Positions 256 to 1,007 of a DNA stretch of 1,007 nt are shown here, piece after piece; within the stretch, counting starts at the first letter, position 1; every line of letters begins with the position of its first letter. The stretch lies in assembly GCA_000004985.1 (NCBI GenBank), contig GG739623.1; one strand, written 5' to 3'. The position numbers and the translations under genes were made by a program. This DNA comes from Naegleria gruberi (Eukaryota). The notes under the pieces are model-generated. The model made no database searches. It was not told the DNA's origin and saw only the letters and a program-made list of their open reading frames with translations.

Positions 256-269
256 TATAGTAGTAAGCT
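256..269. repeat. Copy 1 of the 14-bp exact direct repeat TATAGTAGTAAGCT, in a non-coding context (it closes a short frame-1 ORF 106-273).
   Basis: Identical 14-mer at 256-269 and 877-890. Both are in frame 1 and both encode YSSKL. A W codon lies 6 codons upstream in both copies (KWHFHFQYSSKL versus NWYGVQKYSSKL). Confidence 0.5.
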
Positions 270-530: not shown

Positions 531-562
531 AATAGGGGTTGACATGGGATCCAAACCCTATT
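531..562. repeat. 32-bp imperfect inverted repeat: AATA(G)GGGTT - gacatgggatcca - AACCCTATT. It is a stem-loop candidate with a 5-bp core stem extendable to 9 bp with one bulged G and a 13-nt loop.
   Basis: 536-540 gggtt pairs with 554-558 aaccc. With G535 bulged, 531-534 aata pairs with 559-562 tatt. The loop contains the GGATCC palindrome. TTGACA at 539-544 overlaps the left arm. Confidence 0.35.
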
Positions 563-595
563 AGGAAAAAGAAAAAACTAGGCAGTCCTTTTAAG

Positions 596-703
596 TCTGC
601 TATTGTTCTTCGAAACGTGAATCTGAGAGTTTCCACTACTAAGGCAGCCGATTCCCCATGTATGGCTGTAGATAAAAGTGAACTCTCAGAGGAGGACAAT
701 TAA
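596..703 (+). pseudogene. Possible out-of-frame remnant (frame 2) of the N-terminal part of the same EEP domain. If so, a frameshift would be needed near 680-700 to join it to frame 1.
   Basis: Frame 2 is open from 536 to the TAA at 701-703 and reads …KSAIVLRNVNLRVSTTKAADSPCMAVDKSELSEEDN*. 'IVLRNVNLR' resembles the EEP N-terminal motif (ExoIII 'FVSFNINGLR', L1 'ILTLNINGLN'). 'DSPCMAVDKSEL' loosely resembles the 'D(i/p)..C(l/i)QET.L' block (L1 'DPSVCCIQETHL'), but the catalytic E appears lost. The distance to the 'NIINWY' block (~76 aa) is shorter than in ExoIII/L1, which implies internal deletions. Confidence 0.25.
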
Positions 704-1007
704 ACATCACCTTAGAATGGCCAGTTGCAACCTCTCGTCCTTTTCAATCGACAAACAGGCCATTCTTCTTCACCACAATTTCTTTTGAAGTGCTAGTTTC
801 AGGCAGAGTTTCATGTTTAAAATTAGAAACTGATTATGGTGTTGTCAACATCATTAATTGGTACGGTGTGCAAAAGTATAGTAGTAAGCTCTCAGAGTAT
901 TTACTGGAAGCTATGTTTCACTCGGAACATGTTATTATAATGGGTGACCTTAATATCAACACCTTGTTTGGCTCGGAGAAGAGGAAAGCGAGCGCCTTCA
1001 ATGAATG
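682..1007 (+). CDS. Partial EEP-superfamily (exonuclease III / AP-endonuclease / LINE-EN-like) nuclease domain. Frame 1 is open from the TGA at 679-681 to the window edge. There is no in-frame ATG before 913; GTG at 790 is the only conventional alternative start. The 3' end is outside the window.
   Basis: Frame-1 translation: TLRGGQLNITLEWPVATSRPFQSTNRPFFFTTISFEVLVSGRVSCLKLETDYGVVNIINWYGVQKYSSKLSEYLLEAMFHSEHVIIMGDLNINTLFGSEKRKASAFNE. The blocks 'GRV', 'VVNIINWYGV' and 'HVIIMGDLNI' correspond to the EEP motifs '(E)GR.i', 'v.N.Y.Pn' and 'vIl.GDfN'. Compare ExoIII 'VTVINGYFP…VLIMGDMNISP' and L1 EN 'LNIYAPN…HTLIMGDFNTPL'; spacing is about 34 aa, as in L1. 108 codons without a stop in a ~66% AT sequence is itself improbable by chance. 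All motif comparison was done from memory, not by a search. Confidence 0.55.
877..890. repeat. Copy 2 of the 14-bp exact direct repeat TATAGTAGTAAGCT, inside the EEP coding frame (…VQKYSSKLSEY…).
   Basis: Exact identity to 256-269; the flanking bases differ (a/g before, t/c after). Confidence 0.5.

What the first reader, a model, noticed from the sequence alone, without database searches (positions are those of the whole stretch)
596..1007. EEP-fold nuclease whose N-terminal motifs sit in a different frame, so it is either frameshifted or decaying
The C-terminal EEP blocks (GRV / NIINWY / IIMGDLNI) are intact in frame 1. That frame has no ATG and is closed at 679-681. Recognisable but degenerate versions of the N-terminal blocks (RNVNLR; DSPCMAVDKSEL) lie in frame 2, directly upstream and ending at 701-703. 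The two frames overlap by ~20 nt around the GGAGGA at 691-696. This is the signature of a +1/-1 frameshift inside a single ancestral ORF. It could be a pseudogenising indel, a sequencing/assembly error in a live gene, or, less likely, a programmed frameshift. The motif spacing (about 34 aa between the N.Y and GD(L/F)N blocks) matches LINE L1-type endonuclease. If an RT domain follows downstream, this would be an APE-type non-LTR retroelement, which is routine in eukaryotes and remarkable in a prokaryote.
Basis: partly seen in the sequence, partly recalled or inferred. Interest (0 to 1): 0.6.

Follow-up and report, generated by a model that had tools for sequence, protein, structure and literature searches.

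The report
Broken LINE endonuclease fragment from an amoeba
The window holds the start of the endonuclease gene of a LINE-type jumping gene whose only named relative is from the amoeba Naegleria gruberi, and this copy is dead because a 188-base deletion removed a catalytic block and shifted the reading frame; it is ordinary eukaryotic repeat debris.

Summary
The EEP (endonuclease/exonuclease/phosphatase) call is right. The frame-1 peptide (769-1005) matches a small protein family at E 5e-17, and a profile of that family at E 2e-28. One member passes Pfam Exo_endo_phos. The family profile hits human LINE-1 endonuclease structures at about 1e-7, and a model of an intact member has LINE-1 endonuclease as its 12 best PDB matches.

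The frameshift story is wrong in detail. The true N-terminal block is MASCNLSSFSIDKQAILLHH in frame 3 at 717-776, starting at an ATG. It is not the frame-2 peptide at 596-703, which matches nothing above chance.

Frames 3 and 1 meet at 777|778, where 188 nt present in intact relatives are missing. That loss covers 61 profile positions, including the catalytic Glu block (VQETHW). Frame 3 then stops at 786-788.

This is an internally deleted pseudogene. It is not a ±1 slip and not a programmed frameshift.

The only named relative is a Naegleria gruberi "predicted protein". No relative was found in 185,579 prokaryotic genomes, in viral contigs, or among phages and plasmids. GC is 35.5% and CpG o/e is 0.54, which fits a Naegleria-like eukaryote. 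A downstream reverse transcriptase is inferred, not shown. Interest is low.

The parts
717..776 (+). Start of the endonuclease ORF in frame 3: ATG at 717, peptide MASCNLSSFSIDKQAILLHH. It contains the Asn (729-731) that aligns with catalytic N14 of human L1 endonuclease.
   Evidence: Family profile E 6.5e-8, profile positions 2-25. DNA identity is 84.6% to L001 136-187 and 82.8% to L006 507-570. The N14 equivalence comes from the profile alignment to 2v0s/8sp5.
774..781 (+). Deletion junction at 777|778. It lacks 188 nt that are present in L006 (571-758) and L001, which shifts the frame from 3 to 1. Short microhomology (ATTGAA / ATTTGAA) flanks the lost segment in L006.
   Evidence: tblastx and blastn coordinates, local alignments, junction sequences. 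Profile positions 26-86 are absent and the alignment shows a 65-column gap.
786..788 (+). TGA that ends frame 3 just after the junction, so translation from ATG 717 gives only 23 residues.
   Evidence: ORF list and translation.
778..1007 (+). Central part of the endonuclease domain in frame 1: ISFEVL 778-795, GRV 802-810, NIINWYG 847-867 (Tyr equivalent to L1 Y115), IIMGDLNI 934-957 (Asp/Asn equivalent to L1 D145/N147). It runs off the window end with no stop.
   Evidence: E 5.2e-17 to P0001. Family profile E 2.3e-28, positions 87-172. Motif coordinates. dN/dS 0.23 against L001.
883..888 (+). Site of an in-frame 21-nt (7-codon) gap relative to all four intact relatives.
   Evidence: Protein alignment and DNA alignment.
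539..703 (+). It is not part of the endonuclease domain and its origin is unresolved. Its stop lies 13 nt before ATG 717, where relatives have an ORF1 stop 17 nt before the ATG, but no similarity to those ORF1 tails is detectable.
   Evidence: No profile hit, shuffle tests, no DNA similarity upstream of 714, no Pfam hit.

Best explanation
Window 714-1007 is the 5' part of the endonuclease domain (start of ORF2) of an L1-like, APE-type non-LTR retrotransposon. It belongs to a small, poorly sampled family whose only named member is from the amoeboflagellate Naegleria gruberi. In intact copies this domain would nick target DNA to prime reverse transcription. That function is inferred from its homology to LINE-1 endonuclease.

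The copy in the window is dead. A clean 188-nt internal deletion at 777|778 removed about 61 residues, including the catalytic Glu block (VQETHW), and shifted the frame. Translation from the ATG at 717 therefore stops at 786-788, and the remaining motifs sit unreachable in frame 1.

The remaining 96 aligned codons have no stop and show dN/dS of about 0.23 against a relative. So the lineage evolved as a functional element, and the deletion is recent relative to that divergence.

Shown here: homology, fold class, the missing segment and the frame change. Inferred: a reverse transcriptase downstream, the eukaryotic (heterolobosean) host of this particular contig, and the deletion being biological rather than an assembly error.
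For: Homology of the window:
- The frame-1 peptide hits P0001, P0002 and P0003 at E 5e-17, 1.5e-14 and 3.7e-5.
- A six-frame search with family profile A2 gave frame 1 at E 2.3e-28 (positions 87-172) and frame 3 at E 6.5e-8 (positions 2-25). Positions 26-86 were absent and frame 2 gave nothing.
- In L001 and L006 both blocks lie in one uninterrupted frame, with 188 extra nt between them.

Family identity:
- P0003 passes the Pfam Exo_endo_phos gathering score, 28.4 against 24.5.
- Profile A2 hits human L1 endonuclease structures 2v0s, 8sp5 and 1vyb at E 8.5e-8 to 1.5e-7 over the full length. ExoIII scores only E 0.12.
- The AlphaFold model of P0001 (pLDDT 76.9) has LINE-1 endonuclease/ORF2p as its 12 best PDB matches (E 6.5e-11 to 1.3e-9, TM 0.64-0.69), ahead of APE1, DNase I, TRAS1 endonuclease and ExoIII.

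Element context in relatives:
- A coiled-coil ORF ends 17 nt before the endonuclease ATG in L001 and L006, and overlaps it (ATGA) in L004.
- The ORF continues after the endonuclease domain into a conserved linker in L002, L005 and P0003.
- Some copies carry stops or frameshifts (L002, L005).

Host:
- P0002 is Naegleria gruberi XP_002681148.1.
- Window GC is 35.5% and CpG o/e 0.54. Naegleria genomes are 35-37% GC and carry LINE fragments (PMC6125883).
- No relatives turned up in prokaryotic genomes, viral contigs, phages or plasmids.

Selection: dN/dS 0.23, dS about 1.2.
Against: - No reverse transcriptase domain was demonstrated in any family member. All contigs are under 2 kb, and the post-endonuclease linker profile found nothing in the PDB.
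- P0003 alone also gave no L1 ORF2p hit.
- The N. gruberi scaffold could not be fetched.
- L001's ORF ends with a stop after 238 residues, so a stand-alone nuclease cannot be excluded from that copy alone.
- Upstream of 714 the window shows no ORF1 and no similarity to the ORF1 tails of L001 and L006, although those two are conserved with each other.
- The source organism of the window itself is unknown.
- Without reads, an assembly artefact at 777|778 cannot be formally excluded.
Confidence: 0.85

Rival explanations
1. One reading: a single ancestral ORF with its N-terminal EEP motifs in frame 2 (596-703), joined to frame 1 by a +1/-1 frameshift near 691-696. The cause would be an indel, a sequencing error or a programmed frameshift.
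For: The two frames do overlap at 682-703, and the frame-2 peptide contains strings that loosely resemble N..N and D..E blocks.
Against: - Frame 2 gives no hit to the family profile even at E<=100.
- Its similarity to the family N-terminus, L1 endonuclease and the ORF1 tails is at shuffle level.
- The true N-terminal block, identical in 17 of 17 residues to L001, lies in frame 3 at 717-776. That is downstream of the proposed shift site.
- 61 profile positions are physically absent, so no frameshift can restore the domain.
Confidence: 0.02
2. The gene is intact in the organism, and the 188-nt gap is an assembly or chimera artefact of a low-coverage metagenome contig built from several repeat copies.
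For: - Related contigs are short, and the only coverage figure seen is low (the L001 record name says cov 1.87).
- Repeats are prone to collapse.
- The retained codons are stop-free and look selected.
Against: - The flanks of the lost segment share only about 6-7 nt of microhomology in L006. That is far shorter than an assembler k-mer.
- The junction is clean, and the window also carries a second, in-frame 21-nt difference. This fits a real diverged copy.
- Internally deleted LINE copies are common (established knowledge).
Confidence: 0.1
3. The family is a stand-alone or domesticated host EEP nuclease gene family rather than a retrotransposon. The window would then be a pseudogene of it.
For: - No RT domain was shown.
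- L001's ORF stops after 238 residues.
- The Asp before the catalytic His appears to be replaced by Gln (QHKM) in all members (by-eye alignment).
Against: - The closest sequence and structure neighbours are LINE-1 endonucleases, not repair nucleases.
- A coiled-coil ORF sits immediately upstream, with a 17-nt spacer or an ATGA overlap, as in ORF1/ORF2 elements.
- The ORF continues beyond the endonuclease domain through a conserved linker that ends in an SGYDNISVKFLK string. That string is like the start of LINE RT domains (the resemblance is from knowledge, not tested).
- Several diverged and broken copies occur in four samples.
Confidence: 0.08
4. An APE-type non-LTR retroelement, or an xthA/exoA-like gene, resident in a prokaryote or a virus.
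For: None beyond the fact that the source of the window is not stated.
Against: - No relative in one genome for each of 185,579 bacterial and archaeal species.
- None in IMG/VR.
- None among phages or plasmids.
- ExoIII structures score only E 0.12 against 1e-7 for L1 endonuclease.
- CpG depletion, 35.5% GC and stop-rich flanks with no gene-dense coding are unlike prokaryotic DNA.
Confidence: 0.01

Closest known systems
Human LINE-1 ORF2p endonuclease domain (PDB 1vyb, 2v0s, 8sp5; full ORF2p 8uw3, 9hdr)
   Same: - Same EEP fold, and the best sequence and structure match.
- Same motif order: N...E...(N)xY...GDxN...D-H.
- The domain sits at the very N-terminus of its ORF, directly after an upstream coiled-coil ORF in relatives.
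   Different: - Only about 17-20% identity.
- The family has NWYG where L1 has NIYAP, and QHKM where L1 has SDHS (by eye).
- The window copy lacks the Glu block and is frameshifted.
- RT has not been shown for this family.
Naegleria gruberi XP_002681148.1 / EFC48404.1 (NAEGRDRAFT_46456), 'predicted protein'
   Same: The only named member of the same family. It is 49-57% identical to the window's frame-1 peptide over about 80 residues.
   Different: - It has the 61-residue block that the window has lost.
- Its gene model fuses a 350-residue coiled-coil N-terminus to the endonuclease domain and lacks the MASCNLSS start.
- It is not annotated as a transposon.
Metagenome contigs L001 (ENA ERZ12289962) and L006 (Logan SRR3989338)
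   Same: Closest DNA relatives. They are 83-85% identical over the first 52-64 nt of the ORF and 71-75% further on. They share the same ATG and the same first 17 residues.
   Different: - The endonuclease reading frame is uninterrupted, with the VQETHW block.
- The conserved ORF1 tail upstream is absent from the window.
Cellular AP endonucleases (APE1, E. coli ExoIII/XthA) and the TRAS1 endonuclease
   Same: Same EEP fold.
   Different: Clearly weaker matches than L1 endonuclease. ExoIII scores E 0.12 by sequence profile, and Foldseek E-values are about 100 times worse.

Membership tests
EEP superfamily (Pfam Exo_endo_phos PF03372 / Exo_endo_phos_2 PF14529) | Significant match to the family profile. 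| tested here: met
   The window peptide alone fails (PF14529, E 0.22, 11.8 bits against 27.4). It is nonetheless homologous at E 5e-17 to 3.7e-5 to proteins of which P0003 passes the PF03372 gathering score (28.4 against 24.5). Membership therefore holds by transitive homology.
EEP superfamily | Four-layer alpha/beta sandwich fold. | tested here: met
   Tested on the intact relative P0001, not on the window. AlphaFold gave pLDDT 76.9 and pTM 0.79. Foldseek found 250 PDB matches at E<=0.001, and every one of the 50 listed is an EEP enzyme.
EEP superfamily | Complete catalytic set: N, E, Y, D/N of GDxN, and the C-terminal D and H. | tested here: not met
   The window keeps the Asn (729-731), the Tyr of NWYG (862-864) and the Asp/Asn of GDLN (946-954). 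The Glu block (profile positions 26-86) is deleted. The C-terminal D and H lie beyond the window end. The copy cannot be an active enzyme.
APE-type (L1-like) non-LTR retrotransposon | Endonuclease domain closest to LINE endonucleases and placed at the N-terminus of its ORF. | tested here: met
   (L1 endonuclease is the top match). The ATG at 717 opens the domain in the window, L001 and L006.
APE-type (L1-like) non-LTR retrotransposon | Reverse transcriptase domain downstream in the same ORF. | tested here: inconclusive
   The window ends inside the endonuclease domain. Relatives continue in frame into a conserved linker, but the contigs end before the RT core. There was no PDB hit for the linker profile or for P0003, and the N. 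gruberi scaffold was not retrievable.
APE-type (L1-like) non-LTR retrotransposon | ORF1 immediately upstream of ORF2. | tested here: inconclusive
   Relatives have a coiled-coil ORF ending 17 nt before the ATG (L001, L006) or overlapping it (L004). In the window there is only a 54-codon frame-2 ORF ending 13 nt before the ATG, with no detectable similarity to those ORFs.
APE-type (L1-like) non-LTR retrotransposon | Dispersed multi-copy family with defective copies, a 3' poly(A) or repeat tail, and target-site duplications. | not testable with these tools
   Six short contigs from four samples, some with stops or frameshifts, hint at multiple copies. No host genome assembly or element ends are available.
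Programmed ribosomal frameshift | Two overlapping frames that together encode the complete protein. | tested here: not met
61 profile positions are missing between the frame-3 and frame-1 parts.
Prokaryotic ExoIII/XthA-type AP endonuclease | Best match to xthA/exoA and presence in prokaryotic genomes. | tested here: not met
   ExoIII scores E 0.12 against 1e-7 for L1 endonuclease. There are no relatives in GTDB representative genomes.

The most novel reading that the evidence does not exclude
The window and its handful of relatives could represent a LINE lineage of Heterolobosea (Naegleria and allies) that has not been formally described. It would be L1-like by endonuclease structure, have a coiled-coil ORF1, and carry Gln in place of the conserved Asp next to the catalytic His (QHKM instead of SDH). 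It is so thinly sampled that only about 8 proteins among 15 billion match it.
Probability: 0.3. Interest if true: 0.25.

Novelty: new member of a known kind. Interest (0 to 1): 0.1.

Why it matters
It matters little beyond annotation. The result removes a candidate 'prokaryotic LINE' or 'programmed frameshift' from the list. It also shows that low-coverage metagenome contigs can carry protist repeat debris that looks odd to a prokaryote-centred scan. A minor use: it flags a poorly annotated LINE family in Naegleria-like amoebae, including one N. gruberi gene model ('predicted protein') that is probably transposon-derived.

Tried and rejected
- Pfam and PDB searches with the window peptide alone gave nothing significant.
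- The word-index protein search with the window peptide found nothing. Only the exhaustive phmmer search found relatives.
- Rfam, tRNA, promoter and terminator scans found nothing relevant.
- Phage and plasmid DNA searches gave only 33-nt chance hits.
- The search for related loci with the family alignment found no relatives in viral, JGI metagenome or GTDB genome contigs.
- A 50-nt degenerate DNA pattern that fits the window, L001 and L006 gave 0 hits in the metagenome and genome collections.
- Exact-product look-ups failed for P0001, P0002, P0006 and two window ORFs. The N. gruberi scaffold and the window's own source could therefore not be read.
- The attempt to show an RT through P0003 or a linker profile against the PDB gave no hit.
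- A test of whether the frame-2 ORF is an ORF1 tail gave no DNA or protein similarity above shuffles.
- Pfam on all upstream window segments of at least 34 residues found nothing.
- Literature searches found no description of this family. They found only that Naegleria genomes contain LINE fragments.
- L003 (P0009) is a distant L1/Tx1-like element at 43% GC from another organism and was set aside.

Full report
**What is in the sequence**

The window is 1007 nt, 35.5% GC, with CpG observed/expected of 0.54. Stops are frequent in all six frames, with one exception: frame 1 is open from 682 to the end of the window.

- TGA at 679-681 closes frame 1 upstream.
- Frame 1 has no ATG before the motifs.
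- GRV is at 802-810, NIINWYG at 847-867 and IIMGDLNI at 934-957.
- A frame-2 peptide containing RNVNLR and DSPCMAVDKSEL ends at TAA 701-703.
- GGAGGA is at 691-696.

**Is the frame-1 peptide an EEP nuclease?**

On its own it does not reach significance. Pfam Exo_endo_phos_2 gives E 0.22, 11.8 bits against a cut-off of 27.4. Nothing sensible appears in the PDB, and the word-index search found nothing.

The exhaustive phmmer search of 1.84 billion representatives found three relatives:
- P0001: E 5.2e-17, 55% identity.
- P0002: E 1.5e-14.
- P0003: E 3.7e-5.

Further evidence comes from those relatives:
- P0003 passes the Pfam Exo_endo_phos gathering score (28.4 against 24.5). P0002 and the L001 ORF give sub-threshold hits to the same two families.
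- A profile of four intact members (A2, window excluded) hits human LINE-1 endonuclease structures 2v0s, 8sp5 and 1vyb at E 8.5e-8 to 1.5e-7 over essentially the full length. ExoIII reaches only E 0.12.
- An AlphaFold model of P0001 (pLDDT 76.9, pTM 0.79) has LINE-1 endonuclease/ORF2p chains as its 12 best Foldseek matches in the PDB (E 6.5e-11 to 1.3e-9, TM 0.64-0.69). APE1, DNase I, TRAS1 endonuclease and ExoIII follow.

The EEP and L1-type calls are therefore correct.

**Where the N-terminus really is**

P0001 begins MRGPLRMASCNLSSFTLDKQAILQNLIKTERLGVVNIQESHW. The window encodes RMASCNLSSFSIDKQAILLHH in frame 3, with an ATG at 717.

A six-frame hmmsearch with profile A2 gave exactly two hits:
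- Frame 3, E 6.5e-8, profile positions 2-25, window 702-773.
- Frame 1, E 2.3e-28, profile positions 87-172, window 769-1005.

Its best local alignments were no better than shuffles: the fraction of shuffles scoring as high was 0.29-0.89.

**The lesion**

Two metagenome contigs carry uninterrupted copies: L001 (ENA ERZ12289962) and L006 (Logan SRR3989338). In L001, frame 2 reads MASCNLSSFSIDKQAILMSHIDRERLNVINVQETHW...GRLTCLKLETNEGIVNVVNWYG...ILGDLNIN...RPDHI...QHKM without a break.

The coordinates line up as follows:
- Window 716-767 aligns to L001 136-187 (84.6%).
- Window 714-777 aligns to L006 507-570 (82.8%).
- Window 778 onward aligns to L001 386 onward and L006 759 onward.

The window therefore lacks 188 nt at 777|778. 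Because 188 = 3 x 62 + 2, the frame changes from 3 to 1. Frame 3 then runs into TGA at 786-788, so translation from ATG 717 gives only 23 residues.

The lost segment holds the block with the Glu that aligns with catalytic E43 of L1 endonuclease. All four intact relatives have this segment, so the loss is specific to the window's copy. In L006 the lost segment is flanked by ATTGAA and ATTTGAA. This short microhomology fits a slippage or end-joining deletion. It is too short to explain an assembler collapse.

The window also has a 7-codon in-frame gap at about 885|886 relative to all relatives.

No ±1 correction, sequencing slip or programmed frameshift can rebuild the domain.

**State of decay**

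The 96 codons alignable to L001 contain no stop. They give dN/dS 0.23 with dS of about 1.2. Against L006, dN/dS is 0.08 with saturated dS. Most divergence from the relatives therefore accumulated under purifying selection, as expected for a lineage of once-active elements. The deletion is late relative to that divergence.

**What kind of element, and whose**

Several features in relatives point to a two-ORF element:
- A coiled-coil ORF ends 17 nt before the endonuclease ATG in L001 and L006, and overlaps it (ATGA) in L004.
- After the endonuclease domain the frame continues into a linker conserved between L002/L005 and P0003.
- In P0003 this linker ends in SGYDNISVKFLKACP. From general knowledge of LINE ORF2 proteins, that string resembles the start of the RT domain (compare L1's SPGPDGFTAEFYQ).
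- Some copies carry stops or frameshifts (L002, L005).

This is the layout of an ORF1/ORF2 non-LTR retrotransposon. However, no RT core was seen. All contigs are under 2 kb, and neither P0003 nor the linker profile hit L1 ORF2p. RT is inferred, not shown.

The only named member is Naegleria gruberi XP_002681148.1 / EFC48404.1, annotated 'predicted protein'. Naegleria genomes are 35-37% GC, and RepeatModeler reports LINE fragments in them: 190 pieces, 0.25% of the N. lovaniensis genome (PMC6125883).

No relative was found in any of these collections:
- One genome for each of 185,579 prokaryotic species.
- IMG/VR viral contigs.
- JGI metagenome contigs.
- Phage and plasmid records.

With 49-57% identity to the N. 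gruberi protein, the window is probably from a different subfamily or a related heterolobosean. It is not that exact locus.

**Upstream region (1-713)**

I found no Pfam, Rfam or tRNA feature there. There is no similarity to the ORF1 tails of L001 and L006, although those two are conserved with each other.

Homology starts at 714, three bases before the ATG. With synonymous sites saturated, weakly constrained sequence would be unrecognisable. I therefore cannot tell whether 1-713 is decayed ORF1/5' UTR or unrelated flank.

**Verdict**

This is an ordinary, internally deleted pseudogene copy of an L1-like LINE endonuclease from a Naegleria-like eukaryote. The proposed frameshift geometry was wrong. 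The exciting options (a prokaryotic LINE or a programmed frameshift) are not supported.

Noticed in passing
window 256-269 and 877-890 (also 672-691 against 878-897): An exact 14-nt direct repeat, TATAGTAGTAAGCT. A repeat this long arose in only 0.5% of 1000 first-order Markov simulations. The second copy sits exactly on the 7-codon in-frame gap of the window relative to all relatives. Its continuation, CTCTCAGAG, recurs at 683-691. Templated filler at a repair junction is a guess only.
   Followed up: partly
L001 794-805; L004 1108-1119: All four intact family members have QHKM where L1 endonuclease has SDHS, so Gln replaces the conserved Asp next to the catalytic His. This rests on a by-eye alignment and lies outside the window.
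   Followed up: no
P0002 (Naegleria gruberi XP_002681148.1, 640 aa): The gene model fuses a roughly 350-residue coiled-coil, ORF1-like N-terminus to the endonuclease domain and skips the MASCNLSS start. It is annotated only as 'predicted protein' and is probably a transposon-derived or mis-joined model.
   Followed up: partly
L004 442-445; L001 117-137; L006 490-510; window 701-717: The ORF1 stop and the ORF2 ATG overlap (ATGA) in the distant member L004. They are 17 nt apart in L001 and L006. The window has a frame-2 stop 13 nt before the ATG, but no detectable ORF1 homology.
   Followed up: partly
L004 and L005 (both from ENA ERZ4903137): Two clearly different subfamilies occur in the same sample: L004 at 29.5% GC (its product P0003 is 32% identical to the L001 ORF) and L005 at 37% GC. 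L005 carries frameshifts within the endonuclease domain.
   Followed up: no
window 714-726 / 754-766: A 13-nt inverted repeat, 92% complementary (AGAATGGCCAGTT / AACAGGCCATTCT), spans the ORF start. It lies within conserved coding sequence and is probably incidental.
   Followed up: no
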